Shown here one piece after another: positions 2,469 to 49,810 of a stretch of 50,841 bases of DNA. Location: the NCBI GenBank assembly GCA_029265435.1, contig JAJUJH010000004.1, positions 1 to 50,841 on the forward strand, given 5' to 3'. Every line of letters starts with the position of its first letter. Within the stretch, counting starts at the first letter, position 1. The notes beneath the pieces are model-generated. The model had not been told where the DNA came from, made no database searches, and saw nothing but the letters and a program-made list of their open reading frames with translations. This DNA is from Clostridiales bacterium. Its GTDB lineage: Bacteria > Bacillota > Clostridia > Christensenellales > SZUA-584. The translations under genes were made by a program, and so were the position numbers.

Positions 2469-3448
2469 GCGTGCGCCTCCTTTCTGGCCCGAAGCATCTC
2501 TCTGCGCGCACGTCTGGCCGCTTTCCTTAAGCGAACTTCATATCTGTCGCGCATCAGGAAAAAGATCAATCCGGATAAAAGCGCAATAATGACAAACATG
2601 ATCATGCTGGCCGCAGCCGCAGTATTGTAAAGATATGTGCCGCTGAACGCCTGCGAATAGATGAATACGCTCGTCGTCATTGTCGCGTTGGCCGGCCCGC
2701 CGTTCCAGATGAACAGCTTCGGTATGTCGAACATGTTGAGGCCGCCGATTAAGCTTGTGATCAGCGTAAAAATCATGATATTCCGCAGGCATGGAATCGT
2801 CACACGCCAGAAGGTCTGAGCGGAACTCGCACCGTCGATTTCCGCCGCTTCAAACAATTCGGGATTGATGCCCAGCACACCGGAAATCAGTATGATGGTC
2901 GTATAGCCGTACCACATCCAGAATTGGATAAATGCGACAATCAGCTTGGCCGCCAGAGCATCGTTTGTAAAATAGAATGCCTCTCCGCCAAACGTCTTGA
3001 TCAAATCGTTGACAGGCCCTACCGGATAACCGAAGATCGCGGCGAACAAAACAGCCACCGTCGCGGCTGTGATGATATTCGGCAGATAGAACATCACCTT
3101 AAATGCGCCTTGGCCGCGAATCCTCCGCCTGCTGCTTGTAAACCATGCCGTCAGCAGCATCGCAAGACCCAGCTGAGGTATAAAATTCATCAGCCATATG
3201 ATCACGGTATTGGCCAGAGCATTGAGAAATGTTTTGTTTTGCAGTATGCTTGCAAAATTTGCAAATGGTTCTTTAAGAAAATGATATGTCGTCGTTGCGA
3301 CACCTTTAAAATCCGTAAAGCCAAGAATGGCCGTAAATATCGTCGGATAGAGCATGAAGATCAGAAATGCGACAATGAACGGAATACTGAAATAGTAACC
3401 ATACTTGGCATAACTGACGCTCTTCAAAGCTTTGCTTTTCTGAAGCAT
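2465..3448 (-). CDS. Carbohydrate ABC transporter permease (MalF/AraP-like)
   Basis: The ORF 2465..3523 was trimmed to ATG 3448 (MLQKSKALK...), which follows the SD-like GGGGGAAA. EAA loop EAAEIDGASSAQTFWRVTIP is present. The C-terminus has a basic Arg/Lys-rich tail. Confidence 0.85.
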   Translation of the reverse strand: MLQKSKALKSVSYAKYGYYFSIPFIVAFLIFMLYPTIFTAILGFTDFKGVATTTYHFLKEPFANFASILQNKTFLNALANTVIIWLMNFIPQLGLAMLLTAWFTSSRRRIRGQGAFKVMFYLPNIITAATVAVLFAAIFGYPVGPVNDLIKTFGGEAFYFTNDALAAKLIVAFIQFWMWYGYTTIILISGVLGINPELFEAAEIDGASSAQTFWRVTIPCLRNIMIFTLITSLIGGLNMFDIPKLFIWNGGPANATMTTSVFIYSQAFSGTYLYNTAAAASMIMFVIIALLSGLIFFLMRDRYEVRLRKAARRARREMLRARKEAHA

Positions 3449-5082: not shown

Positions 5083-6117
5083 TCAAAAATCAGCAGCCGA
5101 TACCGACGCGTTCAGCTTTTTGACCGTTCTTCCCTCAACCAGATACGTCGGAACGGTCAGCTGCTGGGGAATATATGTTTTGGGTGAAACGATGGCCTCG
5201 ATCAGCTTTTCGGCCGCCTTTTTCCCCAGCGTCTCGGTGTCCTGCTTGAGCGTCGTCAGCCTTGGGCGCAGCACTTCGGAGAGATAAATTCCGTCGTGCC
5301 CCACAACGCTGATGTCGTCGGGGATCTCAAGCCCATGCCGCTCAATTTCATTCATGCCGCCGATGAATGAAAAATCATCGGGGTACATGATGCATGTGGG
5401 CCGGACCGGCAGGGAGAGAAGCTCCCGAGTGGCCAGCCCGCTCGCTTTCGGATCGTGATAAAACGCCTGTTTCACATATTCGTCCGGCGTTTCAATACCA
5501 AGCTCCGCGCATGTCCTGTGGAAGCTGGCAAGCCTCTTCTGAGTCACTGAAGTGTCTTCGCCGTGGATATAGGCGATCCTTCGATGCCCGCACTCATACA
5601 GATAATGCACAAGCTGCCGGATGCACTCGATGTTGTCGGACAGAATCGCCGTCCTGTTGTCAAACACGTGGTCAATCGTTACCGTGGGTATCTCGCTGCT
5701 GACCAGCTCGACCACGTCCGGGTCTTTGAAGTTGACGCTTGCAATCACCACGCCGTCGCAGTTGCGGTATTTGCAATGCTCGTAGTAGCTCATTTCAAAC
5801 CGGCCGATGTTCTTGCTGATAAATGTGACGTCGAACCCTCTGCTTTCCGCTTCCACCTTAAAGCTGTTGAGCACGGACGAGAAGTATTCATGCGTCAAAC
5901 CGCAATGCGTCTGATCCACAAACAGCACGCCGAGATTGTTCGAGCGGTTCGTTTTGAGCGCGCGCGCCGTCGCATTGGGCAGATACCCCATCTCTTTGGC
6001 CACACTGCGTATATATTCCGCCGTCTCTTCACCGATATCCGGATAGCCGTTGAGCGCTTTGCTGACGGTGGCGGCGGAAACGCCGCACCTTTTCGATATA
6101 TCCTTTATTGTGACCAT
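5083..6117 (-). CDS. LacI/GalR-family transcriptional regulator
   Basis: N-terminal HTH MVTIKDISKRCGVSAATVSKALNG followed by a periplasmic-binding-fold sugar-sensor domain, 344 aa in total. Confidence 0.9.
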   Translation of the reverse strand: MVTIKDISKRCGVSAATVSKALNGYPDIGEETAEYIRSVAKEMGYLPNATARALKTNRSNNLGVLFVDQTHCGLTHEYFSSVLNSFKVEAESRGFDVTFISKNIGRFEMSYYEHCKYRNCDGVVIASVNFKDPDVVELVSSEIPTVTIDHVFDNRTAILSDNIECIRQLVHYLYECGHRRIAYIHGEDTSVTQKRLASFHRTCAELGIETPDEYVKQAFYHDPKASGLATRELLSLPVRPTCIMYPDDFSFIGGMNEIERHGLEIPDDISVVGHDGIYLSEVLRPRLTTLKQDTETLGKKAAEKLIEAIVSPKTYIPQQLTVPTYLVEGRTVKKLNASVSAADF

Positions 6118-43129: not shown

Positions 43130-44503
43130 TCAACGAGCGGCCAGTTCGCGCAGTGCGCAAACAAGCGCGTCGATATCCTCATACGTGTTATACATTCCGA
43201 TTGAAGCGCGAGCAGCGCTTGCAAGGCCGTAATGCGCGAGCGCGGGCTGCGCGCAGTGGCAGCCCGCACGCACCGCGATGCCGTGATCGTTGAGATGCCG
43301 CGCGATTGCCATCGGCTCCGCGTTGTCCATCACGAACGCCGCGACACTCGTTCGGCTCTCCGACGCGCCGATCAGCGTCAGCCCCGGTATGCGCGACAGG
43401 CCCTCCGTCATGTACCGCGTAAGCGCGTGCTCAAACGCGGCGATCCTGCCCATGCCCACTTCGTTTATATAATCGATGGCTGCGCCCAGCCCCACCGCGT
43501 CCGCAATATTGCCCGTGCCCGCTTCGAATTTCGCGGGAATCGGCTGATACTCCGTTTTTTCAAAGCTCACTTTTCTTATCATGCCGCCGCCGCTCTGATA
43601 CGGCGGCATGCTTTCAAGCAGCGCCTTTTTGCCATACAGCACGCCGATGCCCGTCGGCGCGTACACCTTGTGCCCCGAAAACACAAAAAAATCCGCGTCC
43701 ATCTCCCGCACGTCCACAGGCAGGTGCGGTGCGGACTGCGCGCCGTCCACGAGTATCAGCGCGCCGTGCCGGTGGGCGGCGTCCGCAATGATTTTCACCG
43801 GATTCACCGTTCCGAGCACGTTGGATACATGCGTCACGGCGCAAAGCCGCGTTCGCGGCGTGATCAGCCGTTCAAACGCATACGGATCGAGTTCTCCCGA
43901 CCAATCAAACGGCATGACCTTGATGACCGCGCCCGTTTTTTCGGCGGCGCGCTGCCAGGGCACGATGTTGGAATGATGCTCCATCTCGGTGAGCAGTATC
44001 TCGTCGCCGGGGTGAAGATTTGCGGCGCCCCAGCTCTCCGCCGCAAGATTGATGCCCTCCGTCGTGCCGCGCACGAAAATGATCTCTTCAGCCGACGCCG
44101 CGCCCAGAAAGGCGCGCACCTTCTCCCTCGCTTCCTCATAGCAAAGTGTGGCCCGCTGTGCGAGCGTGTGCGCGCCGCGATGCACGTTGGCGTTGCTTGC
44201 GCTGTAATAGCGGCTCACCGCGTCGATTACGCATTGAGGCTTCTGCGTGGTCGCCGCGTTGTCGAGCCAGACGAGCGGCTTGCCGTTCACCTTCGTTTTA
44301 AGTATCGGAAAATCATCGCGGACGAACGGCGCCGCAGGCGAAGGCTCCCGGCCCGCATTAACGGCCGGCGTAACGCTTTGCCGCATAAAAGGCATATCCT
44401 TGGGCATCTCTGCGTTTGGCCTTGCGGGCATTATGTCGCCTCGCAGAAAGCTTTCCGTCATTGCCTGCCGGACCCGCCATGGCGTATTGCTTGTCATCAT
44501 CAT
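43130..44503 (-). CDS. SufS/CsdA-type (group II) cysteine desulfurase with an N-terminal extension of about 60 aa; no suf/isc partners nearby
   Basis: DNAATTQKP, a PLP-lysine block SGHKVYAPTGIGVLYGK and the active-site RAGCHCAQP are present. The start is set at ATG 44503 (MMMTSN...), 5 nt after GGAGAGGAG. Confidence 0.85.
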   Translation of the reverse strand: MMMTSNTPWRVRQAMTESFLRGDIMPARPNAEMPKDMPFMRQSVTPAVNAGREPSPAAPFVRDDFPILKTKVNGKPLVWLDNAATTQKPQCVIDAVSRYYSASNANVHRGAHTLAQRATLCYEEAREKVRAFLGAASAEEIIFVRGTTEGINLAAESWGAANLHPGDEILLTEMEHHSNIVPWQRAAEKTGAVIKVMPFDWSGELDPYAFERLITPRTRLCAVTHVSNVLGTVNPVKIIADAAHRHGALILVDGAQSAPHLPVDVREMDADFFVFSGHKVYAPTGIGVLYGKKALLESMPPYQSGGGMIRKVSFEKTEYQPIPAKFEAGTGNIADAVGLGAAIDYINEVGMGRIAAFEHALTRYMTEGLSRIPGLTLIGASESRTSVAAFVMDNAEPMAIARHLNDHGIAVRAGCHCAQPALAHYGLASAARASIGMYNTYEDIDALVCALRELAAR

Positions 44504-44670
44504 ACCTGCTCCTCTCCGCATAATCGGGAACGCCGGAAATATTGTCCGCTGGCACTGCAGAGAAATAAAGGCTCGGAATATGCAAAACGATCCGCCCGAT
44601 ACCGCCGGGTCTCATCGTCATTCTCAAATACGGGCTTATCCATGCCATAGACGGGGCCGTATTGATTCAT
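44500..44670 (-). CDS. Hypothetical 56-aa ORF translationally coupled to the desulfurase gene
   Basis: Not in the ORF track (under 60 aa). The manual translation is MNQYGPVYGMDKPVFENDDETRRYRADRFAYSEPLFLCSASGQYFRRSRLCGEEQV. GAAGGGAAG lies upstream, and its TGA overlaps the desulfurase ATG (ATGA). Confidence 0.35.
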   Translation of the reverse strand: MNQYGPVYGMDKPVFENDDETRRYRADRFAYSEPLFLCSASGQYFRRSRLCGEEQV

Positions 44671-44921
44671 CGTTCTTCCCTTCTTACCCCAAAGCCGATA
44701 TGGCCTTGCGATTACTATATGAGCATGCCCTTTGCGCTGTGCGGCGCGCGTCCAGCCGTTCCGCCGACGAACACACCGCCCTGCATGAAACAGGCTTCAC
44801 ACAGGGCGGTTTGAAAAGAGGGTGGACACAGAAGCAAAGAGGGGGGCAAATGCGAACCGTTTGAATGTAAGGCCCGCCGCCTTGGCGAGCCTGCTCTCTA
44901 GGCTTCACAAAGAACGATCCG

Positions 44922-45131
44922 TCAGCACCACCAGCAGCGGCGGCAGACACAGCAGCACCAGCAGCGCTTCCTGCAGCCATAAGGCTTGTAATGGAAGCCC
45001 CGGATACCGTCTTTATCTTCCCACGGAACATATCCGCCGAATTCGGCGTTGTCCCGATCCGCGCCGTCAATTTCGCCGAAGCCTTGGGGCTCGTTCTTCG
45101 CATCAGGCCATTGAGGATATCCATCCGGCAT
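44922..45131 (-). CDS. Hypothetical 69-aa protein: acidic/aromatic N-terminal part plus a cationic Cys/Trp-rich C-terminal tail
   Basis: Track ORF 44922..45140 was trimmed to ATG 45131 after the SD-like GGGGGGTGA. The product is MPDGYPQWPDAKNEPQGFGEIDGADRDNAEFGGYVPWEDKDGIRGFHYKPYGCRKRCWCCCVCRRCWWC. Its upstream motif is shared with the 45659 micro-ORF. Confidence 0.5.
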   Translation of the reverse strand: MPDGYPQWPDAKNEPQGFGEIDGADRDNAEFGGYVPWEDKDGIRGFHYKPYGCRKRCWCCCVCRRCWWC

Positions 45132-45560
45132 AAGTGTCACCCCCCTCTATGCATATTGTATTCACAGAAAAAAAAAAGTGCGCTTATAATTCTTCATGTT
45201 CTTTCTCAGCGCTTCATTGCCGTTTTGTCTGTGATATTTCTCACTCCAATCTGCATAGAGTATACAAGCATATCAAACGAGGGTTTTGTATGAAGCGCGA
45301 AGAAGAAGATGATGAGATTATCATAAAAAAGATCACCGAAAAGCAAAAGCTCTCGGCTTATATCGGGCTTCAGAACGTACCGCTCAGAGAGGACGACCCC
45401 CGTATCAGCATCAGGTTTCCCATCAGCCTCCGGTTGTTCTGCGCCGCTTTTGCCGTATCGCGCATGGAAAAAAACAAAAACGAAGGGTGAGCCTGCGCCT
45501 CATGTATGGCCCGCCGCAGCGGCGAGCCGTTTGGGGAACTCGGTCTTTTGCCGCCGGGCT

Positions 45561-45659
45561 TTACCAGCGCCAGCCGCCGCGGTTCCAGCCGCAGCAGCGG
45601 TTCCAGCCGCAGCCCCAGCCGCGGTTCCAGCCGCAGCCCCAATTACACCTGCAGCACAT
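45561..45659 (-). CDS. Hypothetical 32-aa Cys/Trp/Gly/Arg-rich micro-protein with three CGWNR repeats
   Basis: Not in the ORF track (under 60 aa). The codon-by-codon manual translation is MCCRCNWGCGWNRGWGCGWNRCCGWNRGGWRW followed by a stop. The SD-like GGGGGGGTGA ends 4 nt before the ATG. An in-frame TAA lies 8 codons upstream, so this is the only possible start. Confidence 0.5.
   Translation of the reverse strand: MCCRCNWGCGWNRGWGCGWNRCCGWNRGGWRW
45579..45637. repeat. Three copies of the 17-nt unit GCGGTTCCAGCCGCAGC (periods 18 and 24 nt) underlying the CGWNR peptide repeats
   Basis: Perfect copies at 45579-45595, 45597-45613 and 45621-45637. The spacing is a multiple of 3, consistent with a coding repeat. 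Confidence 0.85.
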
Positions 45660-45775
45660 TATCTCACCCCCCCTATTGATATATTATTCGCAGGGCTGCG
45701 TATTGTCACGTTCCCGCTCTTTCGTCACATTTTATACAAACGAATATTTTTCCGTCTGCGGCCAATAATAGGCTT

Positions 45776-47338
45776 ATGAAACCGAAGAAAAACGTTTTTT
45801 TTCGTTTATCGTCAAACAAAAAGCAGGCGGTCATTGATAACGCCGTCAATGAGATCGATCAGGACCTGCAAAACGCTGTGCTTTCCGATTCGCTCGAGCA
45901 AAACACGGCAATTTTGAACGGCCTCTTTCAGGATGTGGATATTTTCATCACGAAGACGGTCACAACCCAAAACGATACGCTGAAGATCGCGGTCGCATAC
46001 TGCGCGGGCGTAACAAGCAAAGAGATAATCGCCGAAAACATCATTGAGCCGCTCACCGTCTGCAGCGATTTAACAAACGGCACGGATATGCTTTCCCATA
46101 TTATGGAGTCCGTGATACAGATCGGCGATGTCAAAAAAACGGGCAGCATAAGCGCGATCGTGGAAGCCGTCTGCTATGGAGATACCGCTGTGCTCCTCGA
46201 CGGGTCGGCGGAAGCCCTGATCGTCAATACCAAGAATTTTTCGACGCGCGCAATCACCGAGCCGGAAAATGAACGGGCGCTCAGCGGCCCGCGCGAAGGC
46301 TTTACCGAAACGCTGATGGTCAATATCTCCATGCTCCGCCGCCGTGTGCGTTCCCATAAACTCAAGCTGAAAATACGGATAATCGGCAGCCAGACAAAAA
46401 CGCAGGTCTGCATCTGCTATATGGACGGTCTTGTCAACGAAAAGATACTTACGGAGCTGTATAAACGGCTCGACAAAATCAATATCGACGCCGTTCTCGA
46501 TACCAATTACATCTCGGAGCTGATCAAGGACGGCCCCTATTCCCCTTTCCGCACCATCGGATACACGGAGCGGCCCGATACCGTGATCGGGCGGCTGCTT
46601 GAAGGCCGCATCGCGCTCATTGCGGACGGAAGCCCGTCTGCGCTGACGCTGCCCTATTTGTTTATCGAGAACTTCCAGAGCAGCGAAGATTATTATATGA
46701 ACTACTACTATACGTCGTTTTCAAGGATACTGCGCATATTCGGCTTCACACTCACGCTGATCGTTCCGGCGCTTTATATCGCCATCGTCGCGTATCATCA
46801 TGAGATGCTGCCCACGCAGCTTCTCATCAACATCGCAATCGCGCGCCAGAACGTGCCGCTGCCCGCCTCCGTCGAAGCGTTTCTGATGCTCATCGTTTTT
46901 GATATACTGCGCGAAACAGGCGTGCGCATGCCTTCCAACGTGGGCCAGGCGCTCAGCATTGTGGGCGCGCTCGTCATCGGCCAGGCCGCCGTGGACGCCA
47001 AAATGGTGGCGGCGCCCATGATCATCATCGTGGCGCTCACCGGCATCACCAATCTTCTTGTGCCGAGGCTCAGCGGCCCTGTAATCTACATCCGGTATTT
47101 TTTTCTTCTCGCGAGCTCGCTTTTCGGCTTTTACGGCCTTGTGCTTGGCATGTCTTCAGTCGTCATCCATATACTCAATCTGCGCTCGTTCGGCATACCT
47201 CAGGTCTCCGCCGCCGGCAACGTCCGTTTTCAGGATGTCAAGGATACGGTTTTCCGCACCCCGTGGCGCAGCATGAAAACGAGGCCGAAATGGAGCCGCA
47301 ACAAAACACGCTTGAATGCAAAGGGCAAAAGCTCATGA
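45776..47338 (+). CDS. Spore germinant receptor, A subunit (GerA/GerAA family)
   Basis: 520 aa. A soluble N-terminal domain is followed by 4-5 TM helices, in typical GerA-family order (…REGFTE.L..N..MLRRR…). Confidence 0.9.
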   Translation: MKPKKNVFFRLSSNKKQAVIDNAVNEIDQDLQNAVLSDSLEQNTAILNGLFQDVDIFITKTVTTQNDTLKIAVAYCAGVTSKEIIAENIIEPLTVCSDLTNGTDMLSHIMESVIQIGDVKKTGSISAIVEAVCYGDTAVLLDGSAEALIVNTKNFSTRAITEPENERALSGPREGFTETLMVNISMLRRRVRSHKLKLKIRIIGSQTKTQVCICYMDGLVNEKILTELYKRLDKINIDAVLDTNYISELIKDGPYSPFRTIGYTERPDTVIGRLLEGRIALIADGSPSALTLPYLFIENFQSSEDYYMNYYYTSFSRILRIFGFTLTLIVPALYIAIVAYHHEMLPTQLLINIAIARQNVPLPASVEAFLMLIVFDILRETGVRMPSNVGQALSIVGALVIGQAAVDAKMVAAPMIIIVALTGITNLLVPRLSGPVIYIRYFFLLASSLFGFYGLVLGMSSVVIHILNLRSFGIPQVSAAGNVRFQDVKDTVFRTPWRSMKTRPKWSRNKTRLNAKGKSS

Positions 47339-48471
47339 AAAAGAAGGCGGCGGCATGTATTCTGATACTATTGATACTCTTTTTCGGCGGCTGCTGGAAC
47401 TACCGCGGCCTTGACGAAATGTCCATCGTATCAGGGCTGGCGATTGACAAAGGCACGGAGGAAAACCCCTATAGAGTTTCGTATCAGATCATCGATCTGA
47501 TGGGCAATGTGGATGTGGAGGGCATCAACGGCAAGCTCCTTGAATCGGACGGCAAAACGCTGTTCGACGCTTGCCGGAACGCAAAAAAAAGCATCGTCGG
47601 GAAGCTCTATTTCGGCCACACACAGGTGGTGGTCATCAGCGAGCAGATGGCGCGCGAAAACGATCTGCTGAACACCGTCAATTGGCTGCTGCACGACAGT
47701 GAACCGCGGGAAACGCTCAAGTTCGTGATTTCCCGGGAAGAAAACGCAAAGGATATTCTGGCCAACGAAACGCTGACCGGACCGATCGCCGCTTTGGAAA
47801 TCAGCAAATACATCGAGGAAGATAACAAGATCACGGCGTCCACATCTTATAAGCAGCTTTATGAAGTATATAACACGCTGATAGAATCCGGCTGCGAATT
47901 AACGCTGCCCGCTATACGCAACATACGGGATAAAGACAGAACCATACCGCAGATCTGCGGCACGGCCGTCTTTAAGGGGCAGCGGCTGATCGGTTATTTG
48001 ACACCCGACGAATCCAAGTATTATCTCTTTGCCGTCGGCGAGATCAACGGCGGCCTTTTCACCTTTCCGGCGGACGGAAGCGGCCCCGACGATATCACGC
48101 TGGAGATAAGCGCAAACCGGACTTCACGCTCGGTTTCTTATGAAAACGGCAAGCCTGTCATTCTCATCAAAACGGAGACCGATGCGTTTCTGGCGGAAAA
48201 CAATGTGCCGGTTGACGCGACGGACAAGCGTCAAGTCGATGAGCTTGAAAAGACGGCCGCCAAAACGCTTGCTCAAAGAATGGTGCAGACCATTCAATAC
48301 GTGCAAACGAAATTTGGATCTGACATTTTCGGATTCGGGAAAACGATCCATAAGACGGAGCCCGCGCTTTGGGATAAATTTGAAAAAGACTGGGATTCCA
48401 TTTTTGCCGCTCTGGAAGTGCGGGTCAGCGTCCGGATCAATATCGTCAACTCGGGGCTGACCCGACAATGA
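47335..48471 (+). CDS. Spore germinant receptor, C subunit lipoprotein (GerAC family)
   Basis: Trimmed to ATG 47335, which overlaps the previous stop as ATGA. MKKKAAACILILLILFFGGCWNYRGLDEMSIV shows a lipobox plus the conserved start of Ger(x)C. Confidence 0.88.
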   Translation: MKKKAAACILILLILFFGGCWNYRGLDEMSIVSGLAIDKGTEENPYRVSYQIIDLMGNVDVEGINGKLLESDGKTLFDACRNAKKSIVGKLYFGHTQVVVISEQMARENDLLNTVNWLLHDSEPRETLKFVISREENAKDILANETLTGPIAALEISKYIEEDNKITASTSYKQLYEVYNTLIESGCELTLPAIRNIRDKDRTIPQICGTAVFKGQRLIGYLTPDESKYYLFAVGEINGGLFTFPADGSGPDDITLEISANRTSRSVSYENGKPVILIKTETDAFLAENNVPVDATDKRQVDELEKTAAKTLAQRMVQTIQYVQTKFGSDIFGFGKTIHKTEPALWDKFEKDWDSIFAALEVRVSVRINIVNSGLTRQ

Positions 48472-48484
48472 AGGGAAACGCGTG

Positions 48485-48700
48485 ATGCTGACGGGTATCG
48501 TGATCGCCTTGTTTGCCGGGCTCGTACTGTTTGGCTACGTCCCCGGCAGAAAAAAGCGCAGGAGAAAAGAAAACATATTTTATGCCGCTGCTCTGGCCGT
48601 CAGCTTTGCGGTGCTGATATTGTACAGCCTGAGCATCACACTGCCCAGCCCCACTAAAGCAATCGACGGCATTGTCAGAATGGTGGTCCCCATCAAATAA
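48485..48700 (+). CDS. Small two-TM protein inside the ger operon (germinant-receptor D-subunit-like)
   Basis: 71 aa: MLTGIVIALFAGLVLFGYVPGRKKRRRKENIFYAAALAVSFAVLILYSL... It has two hydrophobic helices separated by a basic loop. GAAGGGAAA SD is present. It sits between the C and B subunit genes. Confidence 0.55.
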   Translation: MLTGIVIALFAGLVLFGYVPGRKKRRRKENIFYAAALAVSFAVLILYSLSITLPSPTKAIDGIVRMVVPIK

Positions 48701-48715
48701 GAAAGGATAAGCGTC

Positions 48716-49810
48716 ATGCCGAAAGAAATGATATCCGCGCGCCAGGCTTTTTGCATCATCGCGATTTTTATATGGGGCAGCAGCGTCGTGATTGGGGGAA
48801 ACTCCGAAGCCGGTCATGACGCGTGGATCACCCTCGTATTCGGGTTCGCGCTTGCGGTCCCGATGCTGCTGGTTTATGCGCGCATCATGCGGCTCTATCC
48901 GGAGAAAAACCTGTTCGACATCATGGAGGCCATACTCGGCAAAGCCGGCGCGAAAATACTGATCGCGTTTGTCAGCTTTTATGCGCTGCACCTTTGCGCG
49001 ATTGTGCTGTGCAACTTCTCGGAGTTTATTGAAGTCGTCGCCATGCCGGAAACGCCGCAGCTTCCGCTGATGATCATCATGATGGCCGTCACCTCTTATC
49101 TTGCGATCAGCGGCGTGGAGACGCTTGGAAGGTGGGCCGTCGTGACGATGCCTGTCATCATTTTCGTTGTACTGTTCACCGTTATCGCCGCGCTGAATTA
49201 CATGGACTTCACCAACATACTGCCGCTCATGGGTCACGATCTGCCTGTTATTGCCGGAGGCTCGTTCAAGCTCTTTTCGTTTCCGTTTGCCGAGCTTGTG
49301 CTTTTCCTTGGCGTGGCGGACGCCGTCAAAAAGCAGACAAGCCCCTACAAGCTGTTGCTGGGCGCCGGCGCTTTCGGCGCGCTTGTAATGCTGATTGTGA
49401 TGCTCCGCAATGTCGAGCTGCTGGGCTCAATGATTTTCGTCGAATACTTCTCTTCATATATCGCCGCGCGCATCATTTCCGTCGGCGATTTCTTTGCGCG
49501 TATCGAAGGCTCCATTTCGATGAACTTCGTGATCTCCGGCATTACAAAGATCACCTTATGCCTGTTTGTCGCCGCCAGGGGCATATCGTATCTGTTCGGT
49601 TTCTCCGGCGGCAGGCGCATCACGGTGGCCGTGGCGGCGCTCACATTGGCGCTGGCCGTCACACTATACGGCAGCGTCGGCGAGATGTTCAGTTTTATCA
49701 ACGTCTATCCATACTACGCGATGCCGTTCGAGGTTTTTATACCCGTTGTCATCTGGCTGATGGCCGAGATCAAAACAGCGAGGCAAAAAAAACTGGCGGC
49801 CGGCCGTTAG
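48716..49810 (+). CDS. Spore germinant receptor, B subunit (GerAB / spore permease family)
   Basis: 364 aa with about 10 TM helices. The N-terminus ISARQAFCIIAIFIWGSSVV is typical of Spore_permease proteins. Confidence 0.88.
   Translation: MPKEMISARQAFCIIAIFIWGSSVVIGGNSEAGHDAWITLVFGFALAVPMLLVYARIMRLYPEKNLFDIMEAILGKAGAKILIAFVSFYALHLCAIVLCNFSEFIEVVAMPETPQLPLMIIMMAVTSYLAISGVETLGRWAVVTMPVIIFVVLFTVIAALNYMDFTNILPLMGHDLPVIAGGSFKLFSFPFAELVLFLGVADAVKKQTSPYKLLLGAGAFGALVMLIVMLRNVELLGSMIFVEYFSSYIAARIISVGDFFARIEGSISMNFVISGITKITLCLFVAARGISYLFGFSGGRRITVAVAALTLALAVTLYGSVGEMFSFINVYPYYAMPFEVFIPVVIWLMAEIKTARQKKLAAGR

What the first reader, a model, noticed from the sequence alone, without database searches (positions are those of the whole stretch)
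45561..45659. 32-aa micro-ORF MCCRCNWGCGWNRGWGCGWNRCCGWNRGGWRW built on a triplicated coding repeat
The ORF is too short for the ORF track. It has a single possible ATG, because an in-frame TAA lies 8 codons upstream, and a strong purine-rich SD (GGGGGGGTGA). A stop follows directly after the repeat region. Its composition is extreme: 8 Cys, 7 Trp, 8 Gly, 5 Arg and 4 Asn in 32 residues. Three perfect 17-nt DNA repeats spaced 18 and 24 nt apart encode CGWNR three times. Repeated Trp-x-x triplets recall the motifs cross-linked by radical SAM enzymes in cyclophane-type RiPPs. Dense Cys runs recall thioether or thiazole RiPPs and metallothionein-like peptides. No maturase is encoded in this window.
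Basis: seen in the sequence. Interest (0 to 1): 0.7.

Follow-up and report, generated by a model that had tools for sequence, protein, structure and literature searches.

The report
Unannotated Gly/Cys/Trp-rich micro-protein gene
A real but never-annotated 32-codon gene sits beside a spore-germination operon in one group of uncultured Clostridia and encodes a tiny, positively charged peptide made almost entirely of glycine, cysteine, tryptophan, arginine and asparagine; its job is still unknown.

Summary
Window 45659..45561 (minus) is a 32-codon ORF with a strong SD, one possible start and three perfect 17-nt repeats encoding CGWNR. It has 7 Cys, not 8.

It is a real gene. Ten other loci from one uncultured Clostridia clade (every locus with GerA at least 64% identical) carry the same micro-ORF at the same place. 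All share the SD, the ATG and a C-terminal ...R-W-stop (one locus ends ...W-R-stop) in one frame. Seven different lengths occur (99-132 nt). Third-position variation dominates, and pS exceeds pN in most pairs. Two lineages replace Trp with Phe.

No family member is in a 15-billion-protein collection. Pfam, NCBIfam, PDB and Rfam gave no significant match.

The unit is monocistronic and leaderless. No maturase lies in the 50.8-kb window or in the sequenced flanks of the relatives examined. The W-x-R motif and the Cys positions are not conserved, so the RiPP and metallothionein readings are not supported.

The gene always lies back-to-back with a gerA-type germinant-receptor operon. On its other side is an encapsulin/cysteine-desulfurase operon with a sigma-K-like promoter.

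Best guess (about 0.35): a spore-associated, self-associating, disulfide-crosslinkable matrix peptide. Main rival: a Trp/Arg-rich membrane-active peptide. Function remains untested.

The parts
45681..45709 (-). Promoter-like element: GTGACA (45709-45704), 17-nt spacer, TAATAT (45686-45681). The family-wide conserved form is GTGACA-N14-GAATA(T/A)AT.
   Evidence: The sigma-70-type scan gives 9/12 matches. The block is conserved in 10 of 11 loci; L031 keeps only the GAATAT part. It does not match a strict sigma-K pattern. The sigma factor is not assigned.
45663..45673 (-). Shine-Dalgarno GGGGGGGTGAG, 3 nt upstream of the ATG
   Evidence: Read. GGGGGTGA(G/A)A is present at the same distance in all 11 loci.
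45561..45659 (-). Coding sequence: 32 codons plus TAA, encoding MCCRCNWGCGWNRGWGCGWNRCCGWNRGGWRW. Net charge +5, pI 9.1, monoisotopic mass 3865.52 Da reduced with Met and 3734.48 Da without Met.
   Evidence: Orthologues appear.
45579..45637 (-). Three perfect 17-nt direct repeats (45579-45595, 45597-45613, 45621-45637), each encoding (G)CGWNR
   Evidence: 0 expected by chance.
45508..45528 (-). 3'-UTR hairpin GGCTCGCC-GCTGC-GGCGGGCC followed by ATACAT. On the plus strand it is a hairpin followed by GTTT (TTTT in relatives), so it could terminate the convergent 66-aa gene.
   Evidence: The 8-bp stem is invariant in 8 of 8 aligned loci, with one G-U to A-U change. It is present in all 11 loci, including L006 and L031, which lack the convergent gene.
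45468..45501 (-). Terminator-like end of the unit: GAGGCGCAGGCTCACCCTTCG followed by TTTTTGTTTTTTT. Relatives have a cleaner GAAGGGT-TCTC-ACCCTTC stem plus T7-8.
   Evidence: The simple terminator scan did not flag the window copy, and its stem is weaker than in the relatives.
45290..45490 (+). Context: a convergent 66-aa gene of unknown function. Its 3' end overlaps the micro-ORF 3' UTR.
   Evidence: tblastn finds it conserved in L001-L005 at 54-95% identity. A 68-aa gene is called at the same position in L030 and L039. It is absent in L006 and L031. Pfam gives no hit. A strong sigma-70-like promoter lies at 45161-45190.
45776..49810 (+). Context: a divergent gerA-type germinant-receptor operon, comprising GerA 45776-47338, Ger(x)C 47263-48471, a 72-aa membrane gene 48482-48700 and GerB/spore permease 48716-49810
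   Evidence: Pfam and NCBIfam hits. The gene is back-to-back with the micro-ORF in all 11 loci.

Best explanation
Shown (confidence about 0.93): window 45659..45561 is a genuine, previously unannotated protein-coding gene. It forms a self-contained monocistronic unit with a conserved promoter-like element, a very strong SD, an ATG, 32 codons, a TAA and a T-rich terminator. It founds a small-protein family of 32-43 aa (10 distinct sequences in 11 loci) restricted to one uncultured Clostridia clade. The product is leaderless and cationic (+3 to +5), and no confident fold is predicted. It is a tandem-repeat peptide built almost only from Gly, Cys, an aromatic residue (Trp, or Phe in two lineages), Arg and Asn. 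The N-terminus (MC[CN]..) and C-terminus (..G[WR]RW) are conserved.

Inferred (about 0.35): the peptide acts as made, without a maturase, as a spore-associated matrix or 'glue' component. Aromatic and Arg residues on Gly spacers would drive self-association or binding to other spore-layer proteins. The 5-10 thiols would then lock the assembly through disulfides once the spore leaves the reducing cell. This is how Cys-rich exosporium and crust proteins, and high-Gly/aromatic, high-sulfur keratin-associated proteins, are thought to work.
For: Gene reality:
- SD, ATG and CGN-TGG-TAA are kept in one frame across seven different lengths, 99-132 nt.
- Frame-blind nucleotide alignments give mismatches by codon position of 210/106/294. 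Gap lengths are mostly multiples of 3 (141 against 66).
- Protein-guided pairs show purifying selection, for example L006-L031 pS 0.69 against pN 0.07, and L004-L005 0.45 against 0.07.
- Synonymous codons are used freely: 4 Gly, 2 Cys and 6 Arg codons.
- Each member has 11-15 TGY/TGG codons one step from a stop. The only nonsense change in the family removes the last residue, in L038.
- Trp is replaced by Phe at the aromatic positions in L006 and L031.

Stand-alone and unmodified:
- The unit has its own promoter-like element and terminator.
- There is no leader.
- No maturase is found in the window or the relatives' flanks.

Spore context:
- The gene is always back-to-back with a gerA operon. 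That operon's upstream region carries a sigma-G/F-like motif in 7 of 11 loci.
- The next operon on the gene's own strand, encapsulin plus cysteine desulfurase, carries AC-N17-CATATAGTA, a sigma-K/E-type -10.
- The gerA adjacency survives rearrangements on the other side: encapsulin deleted in the window, the 66-aa gene lost in L006, and two genes inserted in L031.

Composition analogy:
- The Phe-type member gives a sub-threshold hit to Pfam KRTAP, 15.1 bits against a 21.1 cut-off.
- AlphaFold2 gives no confident fold, pLDDT 52.

Precedents:
- The lineage-restricted Cys-rich exosporium proteins CdeC and CdeM in an anaerobe (PMC9542656).
- The ~3 kDa coat protein SscA (PMC13417171).
- The sigma-K-dependent tiny protein YjcZ (PMC517825).
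Against: There are no expression, proteomic or localisation data of any kind.

The micro-ORF's own promoter best fits a housekeeping sigma-70 pattern. It does not match the strict sigma-K pattern that its neighbour matches.

The link to sporulation rests on adjacency within a single clade, so conserved synteny may simply reflect shared ancestry.

Gly, Cys, Trp and Arg all use NGN codons. Part of the compositional conservation could therefore reflect mutational neighbourhood rather than selection for a sticker-spacer design.

Net positive charge with Trp and Arg is equally typical of membrane-active peptides.

The KRTAP hit is below threshold and reflects composition only.
Confidence: 0.35

Rival explanations
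1. A membrane-active or antimicrobial cationic Trp/Arg/Cys peptide. It would be made without a leader, like leaderless bacteriocins, and would act on competitors after cell or mother-cell lysis, or as an endogenous lytic or toxic peptide.
For: Net charge of +3 to +5 with almost no acidic residues in all 10 members, and a conserved C-terminal WRW/RRW. The composition and the 5-mer RCCGW are shared with the plant peptide Ib-AMP1, QWGRRCCGWGPGRRYCVRWC, charge +5 (PMC10136942). There is no leader. The gene stands alone and has a very strong SD. Its 3' end overlaps a convergent transcript, an arrangement that, from my own knowledge, is seen in some type I toxin-antitoxin loci.
Against: No immunity, ABC-transporter or other export gene lies next to it in any of the 11 loci. 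It behaves as a stable syntenic core gene across lineages whose GerA is only 64-72% identical. That is atypical for bacteriocins. Gly content is 25-50%, and no amphipathic helix or hydrophobic segment is evident. The Ib-AMP cysteine pattern CCX8CX3C is absent. The convergent partner is a conserved protein-coding gene rather than an sRNA, and it is missing in L006 and L031.
Confidence: 0.2
2. A cytoplasmic thiol-rich peptide that binds metals or carries sulfur (metallothionein-like, or a persulfide or polysulfide acceptor). It would be functionally tied to the neighbouring SufS-type cysteine desulfurase and family-2A encapsulin operon.
For: Members have 5-10 Cys in 32-43 residues. A SufS-type cysteine desulfurase lies 1-2.7 kb downstream on the same strand in the 10 loci whose sequence extends that far; L038 is cut short. 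A family-2A encapsulin shell gene accompanies it in 8 of them. In L006 and L031 no opposing gene lies between them.
Against: Cys number and positions are not conserved, no His is present, and neither Pfam metallothionein nor any other model matches. The window lineage lost the encapsulin shell but kept the micro-ORF. Four encapsulin/cysteine-desulfurase operons in other lineages have no such micro-ORF within 6 kb. The unit has its own terminator, and in the other 9 loci a convergent gene separates it from that operon.
Confidence: 0.12
3. A RiPP precursor, for example a radical-SAM cyclophane on W-x-R, or azole or thioether formation on Cys, whose maturase is encoded elsewhere in the genome.
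For: Three WNR triplets in the window peptide resemble the three WPR motifs cross-linked Trp-C5 to Arg-C-gamma by WprB. That paper also describes a second precursor group with a single WxR/K motif (PMC11851443). G-C-G contexts resemble azole-forming sites (own knowledge).
Against: There is no leader or follower: conservation begins at Met1, and the whole peptide is 32-43 aa. No radical SAM, YcaO or Lan enzyme is found in the 50.8-kb window, in the +/-8 kb around L030 and L031, or in the +/-3 kb around L038 and L039. W-x-R is not conserved: there are 0 in L002, and L031 has F-R-G and F-H-G. The window peptide has no Ser or Thr, so lanthionine is impossible. NCBIfam RiPP-precursor models, including SCIFF, do not match.
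Confidence: 0.05
4. A regulatory leader peptide. Translation of a Cys/Trp/Gly-codon-rich uORF would sense charged-tRNA or amino-acid supply. It would control read-through of the downstream terminator into the encapsulin/cysteine-desulfurase operon, or antisense transcription of the 66-aa gene.
For: The ORF is short, rich in Cys and Trp codons, and followed by hairpins and a terminator. It lies on the same strand as, and upstream of, a cysteine-consuming operon.
Against: RNAalifold on eight 3' UTRs finds only two invariant, independent hairpins and no conserved alternative (antiterminator) pairing. The stop codon is 35-59 nt from the first conserved hairpin. A convergent gene intervenes in 9 of 11 loci. 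The downstream operon has its own conserved sigma-K-like promoter. Conserved peptide termini, purifying selection on non-regulatory residues and the Trp-to-Phe switch are not expected of a leader peptide.
Confidence: 0.05
5. Not a functional protein: a chance open frame in a GC-rich trinucleotide-periodic repeat that is conserved for a DNA- or RNA-level reason.
For: Several other frames across the repeat are also free of stops. No gene caller has ever called it. All protein-database searches were empty.
Against: The SD, ATG and stop are conserved in phase across seven lengths. Third-position variation dominates, the second position is most constrained, and pS is well above pN in several pairs. 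The nucleotide sequence of the repeat itself is poorly conserved while the residue alphabet is kept. The absence from databases is explained by its size and by competing longer ORFs on the opposite strand.
Confidence: 0.03

Closest known systems
Cys-rich and very small spore-surface proteins (C. difficile CdeC/CdeM; B. subtilis SscA ~3 kDa, YjcZ, CotY/CotZ)
   Same: They are small or Cys-rich, lineage-restricted and found in endospore formers. Their proposed action is self-assembly plus disulfide cross-linking (PMC9542656, PMC13417171, PMC517825). The gene here sits among sporulation operons.
   Different: There is no sequence similarity, and the YjcZ model TIGR01732 does not match. The peptide has no hydrophobic core segment. 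Sporulation-specific expression has not been shown, and the promoter is not sigma-K-like.
High-glycine/tyrosine and high-sulfur keratin-associated proteins (Pfam PF11759 KRTAP)
   Same: Repeats of G-C-G-aromatic. The matrix role of these proteins is attributed to aromatic contacts and disulfides (own knowledge). The Phe-type member L006 gives a weak hit.
   Different: These are eukaryotic, and the hit is below threshold (15.1 against 21.1 bits) and compositional. The other members do not hit. This is convergence at most, not homology.
Ib-AMP1-4 of Impatiens balsamina
   Same: Similar size class (20 aa), charge +5, Trp/Arg/Cys/Gly-rich and non-helical. They share the RCCGW 5-mer with window residues 21-25 (PMC10136942).
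   Different: They are plant peptides, secreted and cut from a polyprotein with a signal peptide. Their fixed CCX8CX3C pattern with two disulfides is absent here.
Radical-SAM cyclophane RiPP precursors (WprA with three WPR motifs; WgkA)
   Same: Repeated Trp-x-Arg/Lys triplets (PMC11851443).
   Different: Those precursors are encoded next to the rSAM enzyme, with or without an RRE or chaperone. Here there is no maturase and no leader, and the triplet is not conserved in the family.
Leaderless (class IId) bacteriocins such as aureocin A53 and lacticin Q (own knowledge)
   Same: They are made without a leader and are cationic, Trp-rich and 40-50 aa.
   Different: Those are helical and lack Cys/Gly repeats. 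They are encoded with immunity and ABC-transporter genes on accessory elements. Here there are no such neighbours, and the gene is a stable syntenic chromosomal locus.
Bacterial metallothioneins (SmtA/BmtA, MymT; own knowledge)
   Same: Small and Cys-rich.
   Different: Those have fixed Cys/His ligand patterns. Here Cys number and positions drift, there is no His, aromatic content is high, and no Pfam match is found.

Membership tests
RiPP precursor (rSAM cyclophane/triceptide, e.g. WprA/WgkA) | N-terminal leader (or follower) distinct from a modified core | tested here: not met
   The peptide is 32-43 aa in total. Conservation starts at Met1 (MC[CN]..), and the repeats begin at residue 7-9.
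RiPP precursor (rSAM cyclophane/triceptide, e.g. WprA/WgkA) | Maturase (radical SAM/SPASM, with or without an RRE) encoded next to the precursor | tested here: not met
   No PF04055-type or other maturase is found among Pfam hits for the 50.8-kb window. None is found in +/-8 kb of L030 and L031 or +/-3 kb of L038 and L039. The rest of the genomes was not searchable.
RiPP precursor (rSAM cyclophane/triceptide, e.g. WprA/WgkA) | Conserved three-residue aromatic-x-x modification motif | tested here: not met
   There are 3 W-x-R in the window, 0 in L002, 1 each in L004 and L030, F-N-R in L006, and F-R-G and F-H-G in L031.
Lanthipeptide | Ser/Thr for dehydration plus Cys; LanB/C/M/KC/L enzyme | tested here: not met
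   The window peptide has no Ser or Thr, and no Lan enzyme is found.
SCIFF/ranthipeptide and other NCBIfam RiPP precursor models | Match to the curated precursor HMM and an adjacent rSAM | tested here: not met
   NCBIfam returns 0 families at E up to 10 for the 7 members scanned (L030, L031 and L038 were scanned against Pfam only).
Metallothionein (bacterial) | Conserved Cys/His ligand pattern; Pfam metallothionein model | tested here: not met
   Cys count is 5-10 with shifting positions and no His, apart from one in L031. Pfam gives no hit. Metal binding itself is not testable here.
YjcZ family sporulation protein (TIGR01732) | HMM match; central hydrophobic segment flanked by Gly-rich ends | tested here: not met
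   No NCBIfam hit. The sequence has no hydrophobic segment.
Keratin-associated matrix protein (PF11759) | Pfam score at or above the gathering threshold | tested here: not met
   Only L006 hits, at 15.1 bits against a 21.1 cut-off, E 0.034. The other members give none.
Leaderless bacteriocin | No leader; cationic and Trp-rich | tested here: met
Leaderless bacteriocin | Linked immunity and ABC-transporter genes; helical fold | tested here: not met
   The neighbours are gerA, the 66-aa gene, and encapsulin/SufS. AlphaFold2 predicts no helix, at low confidence.
Ib-AMP | CCX8CX3C cysteine pattern; secreted polyprotein precursor | tested here: not met
   CC at residues 22-23 is followed by no further Cys. 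There is no signal peptide (PMC10136942).
Type I toxin | Hydrophobic transmembrane peptide with an overlapping antisense sRNA | tested here: not met
   There is no hydrophobic stretch. The convergent overlapping transcript encodes a conserved 66-aa protein and is absent in L006 and L031.
Attenuation leader peptide | Mutually exclusive terminator and antiterminator structures adjacent to the uORF stop | tested here: not met
   RNAalifold finds two independent invariant hairpins and no conserved alternative pairing. The stop lies 35-59 nt from the first hairpin.
Spore coat/exosporium structural protein (functional class) | Expression from a sporulation sigma factor and presence in spore layers | tested here: inconclusive
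   The flanking operons carry sigma-G/F-like and sigma-K-like motifs, but the gene's own promoter fits neither strictly. Localisation is not testable with these tools.

The most novel reading that the evidence does not exclude
The peptide is a new kind of spore micro-protein. It would be a redox- or sulfur-responsive Gly/Cys/aromatic/Arg repeat peptide that is functionally coupled to the GerA-type germinant receptor it is always paired with, or to the sporulation-expressed encapsulin/cysteine-desulfurase system. For example, it could tune germination or spore-layer assembly through thiol state.
Probability: 0.15. Interest if true: 0.75.

Novelty: new variant of a known kind. Interest (0 to 1): 0.5.

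Why it matters
The finding shows that a strongly conserved gene under purifying selection can be missed by every annotation pipeline. No family member is present in a 15-billion-protein collection. The likely reasons are its length (32-43 codons), its low complexity, and longer spurious ORFs on the opposite strand.

The peptide's residue alphabet is extreme. Its fixed position between a germinant-receptor operon and a putatively sporulation-controlled encapsulin operon gives a concrete, testable candidate for an unknown component of anaerobe spores. Alternatively, it is a new leaderless Trp/Arg/Cys peptide with membrane activity.

Its reach is limited by the narrow, uncultured host range and by the complete lack of functional data.

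Tried and rejected
Searches that found nothing:
- phmmer of the peptide against 1.84 billion representative proteins returned 0 hits.
- An HMM of six members against 5.8 billion proteins scored nothing at E up to 10 among 8000 candidates. The 32-aa query itself was too short for that tool.
- Exact look-ups of all 10 peptides and two GTG-extended forms found none in the collection.
- Pfam and NCBIfam returned nothing except one sub-threshold KRTAP hit.
- PDB sequence search returned 0, and Rfam returned 0.
- tblastn against plasmids and phages returned 0.
- The first metagenome scan found nothing. The second found 8 chance matches, L022-L029, none of them family members.

Tests that gave no useful result:
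- AlphaFold2 on the single sequence gave pLDDT 52 and pTM 0.14, which is uninformative.
- Folding of the 3' UTR was not more stable than shuffles, z = 0.66.

Ideas tested and rejected:
- Companion of family-2A encapsulin operons in general: four other encapsulin loci (L034-L037) have no Gly/Cys/aromatic micro-ORF.
- Sigma-K promoter for the micro-ORF: the strict pattern finds the neighbouring encapsulin promoter but not this one. Fits by eye to sigma-E/F/G/H and ECF consensus sequences, recalled from memory, were inconsistent across loci.
- The 72/69-aa ORF with a Cys/Trp-rich tail as a paralogue: it occurs only in the window and L001 and shows no detectable similarity.
Full report
OBSERVATION. 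The minus strand of window 45659..45561 encodes MCCRCNWGCGWNRGWGCGWNRCCGWNRGGWRW followed by TAA. An in-frame TAA at 45686-45684 is followed by eight sense codons that contain no alternative start, so the ATG is the only possible start. GGGGGGGTGAG at 45673-45663 is a near-perfect Firmicute Shine-Dalgarno sequence, 3 nt from the ATG. The 17-mer GCTGCGGCTGGAACCGC occurs three times, at 45579-45595, 45597-45613 and 45621-45637. The spacing is 18 and 24 nt, and no shuffle produced a match (searches agree). An open frame is not evidence in itself here, because several other frames across this GC-rich repeat also lack stops.

ANATOMY. The ORF is a self-contained unit.
- Upstream lies GTGACA-17 nt-TAATAT (45709-45681), scored 9/12 by the sigma-70 scan.
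- Downstream lie an 8-bp hairpin GGCTCGCC/GGCGGGCC (45528-45508) and a hairpin plus T-run (45501-45468).
- On the plus strand a conserved 66-aa gene (45290-45490) converges on it. That gene has its own 11/12 sigma-70-like promoter at 45161-45190.
- The first hairpin, read on the plus strand, is followed by a T-run, so it could serve as that gene's terminator. The two transcripts would then overlap at their 3' ends.

HOMOLOGOUS LOCI AND CODING EVIDENCE. The peptide was too short or too biased for the protein search tools, so I used the neighbouring GerA protein to fetch related loci.
- A 99%-identical JGI contig (L001) has two substitutions in the ORF, both nonsynonymous and both within the same alphabet (G14C, C17W).
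- Five GTDB MAGs (L002-L006; GerA 67-69% identical) and four further assemblies (L030, L039, L031, L038; GerA 64-72%) carry a micro-ORF at the same position and in the same orientation.
- The sequences are:
  L002 MCNRCNWGCCGGNRWGGCCGGWGGGCGGWGGGCGWRGGCGCRW
  L003 MCCNRSNWDGCGWGCGGGWGRGGGWGRGCGWGCGGGWGGWRW
  L004 MCCNRWNWGGGCGGWGGCGGWGGCGWGRGCGGWGGWRW
  L005 MCNRCNWGCGGGWRRGGCGWNRGWGCGWGGGWRW
  L006 MCNRCFGGGCGFGCGFNRGCGCGCGFNRGCGCGFGCGRRW
  L030 and L039 MCNRWNWGGGCGWGGGCGGGCGWGGGCGWGRGCGGWRW
  L031 MCCGFSRWGRGCGCGFRGCGFHGCGCGFRGCGCGFGWRW
  L038 MCCRCNWGGYWGRGRGCRRGCGWNRGWGCGWGGWR
- Every locus whose GerA is at least 64% identical and whose upstream region is present has the micro-ORF. Every locus at 61% or below lacks it.
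- The SD, the ATG and the final CGN-TGG-TAA stay in one reading frame across seven different lengths, 99-132 nt. The chance of that phase agreement is about (1/3)^6.
- Frame-blind nucleotide alignments place nearly all aligned bases in the same codon phase. Mismatches by codon position are 210/106/294, and most gaps are multiples of 3.
- Protein-guided comparisons give pS well above pN. L006-L031 is 0.69 against 0.07, L004-L005 is 0.45 against 0.07, and window-L038 shows 3 synonymous and 0 nonsynonymous differences in 23 aligned codons. That alignment is fitted to this frame, so one search is the fairer control.
- All synonymous codons of Gly, Cys, Arg, Asn and Phe are used.
- Each member carries 11-15 TGY/TGG codons that are one mutation from a stop. 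The only nonsense change in the family trims the last residue, in L038.
- In L006 and L031 the aromatic positions are Phe instead of Trp, so the residue class is kept while the codons change.
I put the probability that this is a real protein-coding gene at about 0.93.

WHY IT WAS NEVER SEEN. None of the ten peptides, nor two GTG-extended versions, is present in the 15-billion-protein collection. In L001, L030, L031 and L039 no gene is called at this position. Consistently, phmmer against 1.84 billion representatives and a family HMM against 5.8 billion proteins found nothing. So did Pfam, NCBIfam, PDB, Rfam, plasmids and phages. Two metagenome pattern scans gave only chance matches. The family appears confined to one uncultured Clostridia lineage. 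The nearest named GerA relatives, at 55-64% identity, are MAGs and isolates labelled Christensenellaceae, Oscillospiraceae, Caproiciproducens or Clostridiales.

CONTEXT. The gene lies back-to-back, about 116-150 nt away, with a gerA-type germinant-receptor operon. That operon comprises GerA (PF03323), Ger(x)C, a 72-aa membrane gene and GerB/spore permease.
- The region upstream of gerA contains G[CA]ATA-N16-18-[CA]ATnnTA in 7 of 11 loci. As I recall the consensus, this is the forespore sigma-G/F type.
- On the micro-ORF's own strand, further downstream, relatives have a family-2A encapsulin shell gene (PF19307, E 1.7e-104) followed by a SufS-type cysteine desulfurase.
- That operon is preceded in every locus, and also in the unrelated Clostridia loci L034-L036, by AC-N16/17-CATATAGTA. 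This matches the B. subtilis sigma-K/E -10 consensus CATAnnnTA as I recall it.
- In the window and L001 the shell gene has been deleted. Only this promoter (44740-44713) and the first codons MNQY remain ahead of sufS.
- The side of the micro-ORF facing the encapsulin operon is plastic: the shell gene is deleted in the window, the 66-aa gene is lost in L006, and two genes are inserted in L031. The gerA side never changes.
- Four encapsulin operons from other lineages have no comparable micro-ORF.
- The stable partner is therefore the germinant-receptor operon, and both flanks look sporulation-controlled.
- The micro-ORF's own promoter (GTGACA-N14-GAATA[T/A]AT, conserved in 10 of 11 loci) fits neither sporulation pattern strictly. 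It is best described as sigma-70-like. I could not assign its sigma factor.

- RiPP. The closest concrete analogue is WprA, whose three WPR motifs are cross-linked Trp-C5 to Arg-C-gamma by the radical SAM enzyme WprB encoded beside it (PMC11851443). Here there is no leader. No radical SAM, YcaO or Lan gene lies in the 50.8-kb window or in the sequenced flanks of L030, L031, L038 and L039. W-x-R is not a family feature, with 0 copies in L002. Lanthionine formation is impossible without Ser or Thr.
- Metallothionein. Cys number (5-10) and positions drift, there is no His pattern, and no model matches.
- Attenuation leader peptide. RNAalifold finds two independent invariant hairpins and no conserved alternative pairing. 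The downstream operon has its own promoter, and a convergent gene usually intervenes.

MECHANISM. What is shown: the product is a leaderless, cationic (+3 to +5, pI 8.6-10.0) peptide for which no confident fold is predicted (AlphaFold2 pLDDT 52). It has conserved termini and a variable number of G-C-G-aromatic-x-R/G repeats. What is conserved is composition and residue class rather than exact sequence.

What is inferred: aromatic and Arg 'stickers' on Gly 'spacers', combined with many thiols, is a design attributed to self-associating, disulfide-locked matrix proteins. The Phe-type member weakly resembles keratin-associated matrix proteins (PF11759, sub-threshold). Lineage-restricted Cys-rich proteins build the exosporium of an anaerobe (CdeC and CdeM; PMC9542656). 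Very small coat-associated proteins also exist (SscA, ~3 kDa, PMC13417171; YjcZ, sigma-K-dependent, PMC517825). Together with the sporulation neighbourhood, this makes a spore-associated structural peptide my best single explanation, at about 0.35.

The main rival, at about 0.2, is a membrane-active Trp/Arg/Cys peptide. Ib-AMP1 (QWGRRCCGWGPGRRYCVRWC, +5; PMC10136942) shares the composition and the RCCGW 5-mer. However, no immunity or export genes are present, and the gene behaves as a stable chromosomal core gene. The remaining rivals are a thiol/metal/sulfur-carrier role (0.12), a RiPP with a distant maturase (0.05), a leader peptide (0.05) and a non-functional ORF (0.03). The remaining probability is reserved for functions not considered.

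One caveat applies. Gly, Cys, Trp and Arg all have G at the second codon position, so part of the restricted alphabet may reflect mutational neighbourhood within an (NGN)n repeat.

NOVELTY AND VALUE. This is a new small-protein family that belongs to no curated family. In kind it resembles known low-complexity Cys-rich peptides, so I rate it a new variant of a known kind. It is a clear example of a conserved gene missed by all annotation, and a concrete candidate for targeted MS and heterologous tests. Its narrow, uncultured distribution and the absence of any functional data keep the interest moderate (0.5).

Noticed in passing
window 44500-44740 (minus); L002 2069-3128; L003-L006, L030, L031, L039: Relatives carry a family-2A encapsulin shell gene (328 aa, PF19307) directly upstream of the SufS-type cysteine desulfurase. 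In the window and L001 the shell gene is deleted, leaving only its promoter and a remnant ORF starting MNQY. The window SufS N-terminus also lacks the L-A-D-L-A-N-R-F-Y stretch seen in L002. From memory, that stretch resembles the cargo-loading motif LARLANEFFS.
   Followed up: partly
window 44713-44740 (minus); L002 3101-3128; L034 5920-5947; L035 5931-5958; L036 5909-5935: Every encapsulin/cysteine-desulfurase operon examined in endospore-forming Clostridia is preceded by AC-N16/17-CATATAGTA (CATATATTA in L036). This matches the sigma-K/E-type -10 consensus CATAnnnTA as I recall it. It suggests that family-2A encapsulins are mother-cell sporulation genes in these bacteria.
   Followed up: partly
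window 44922-45131 (minus): A 69-aa ORF (MPDGYPQW...GCRKRCWCCCVCRRCWWC) has the same strong SD (GGGGGGTGA) and a Cys/Trp/Arg-rich C-terminal tail. It is present only in the window and L001, is called as a gene in L001, and has no Pfam hit.
   Followed up: partly
window 45290-45490 (plus): A conserved 66-aa gene of unknown function converges on the micro-ORF with interleaved terminators. It is conserved in L001-L005, and a 68-aa gene sits at the same position in L030 and L039. It is absent in L006 and L031. It has no Pfam hit and an 11/12 sigma-70-like promoter at 45161-45190.
   Followed up: partly
window 45508-45528 and the equivalent position in all 11 loci: The hairpin GGCTCGCC-loop-GGCGRGCC followed by TACAT(T) is invariant even in the two loci that lack the convergent gene it would terminate. 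Its role there is unexplained.
   Followed up: partly
window 48482-48700 (plus): A 72-aa gene with two hydrophobic segments lies between gerC and gerB and is conserved in all relatives. It resembles the small 'D' subunits described for some Bacillus Ger receptor operons (own knowledge).
   Followed up: no
window 45740-45776 (plus): The sigma-G/F-like motif upstream of gerA (GAATA-N17-CAATAATA) ends only 6 nt before the ATG at 45776. The true gerA start in this genome may therefore lie downstream of the longest-ORF start.
   Followed up: no
L003 about 3000-3400; L037 about 5600-5950: Tandem copies of a repeat unit of roughly 140 nt (..GTTGTCATACTGAGC..CGAAGTATACCATAGC..) lie downstream of the micro-ORF in L003. 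Similar elements lie upstream of the encapsulin gene in L037. The element was not identified.
   Followed up: no
L038 (minus strand, about 130 nt upstream of the gerA start at 620): In this orthologue the last Trp codon is TAG instead of TGG, so the peptide ends ...GGWR. The terminal Trp is therefore dispensable, or this copy is starting to decay.
   Followed up: no
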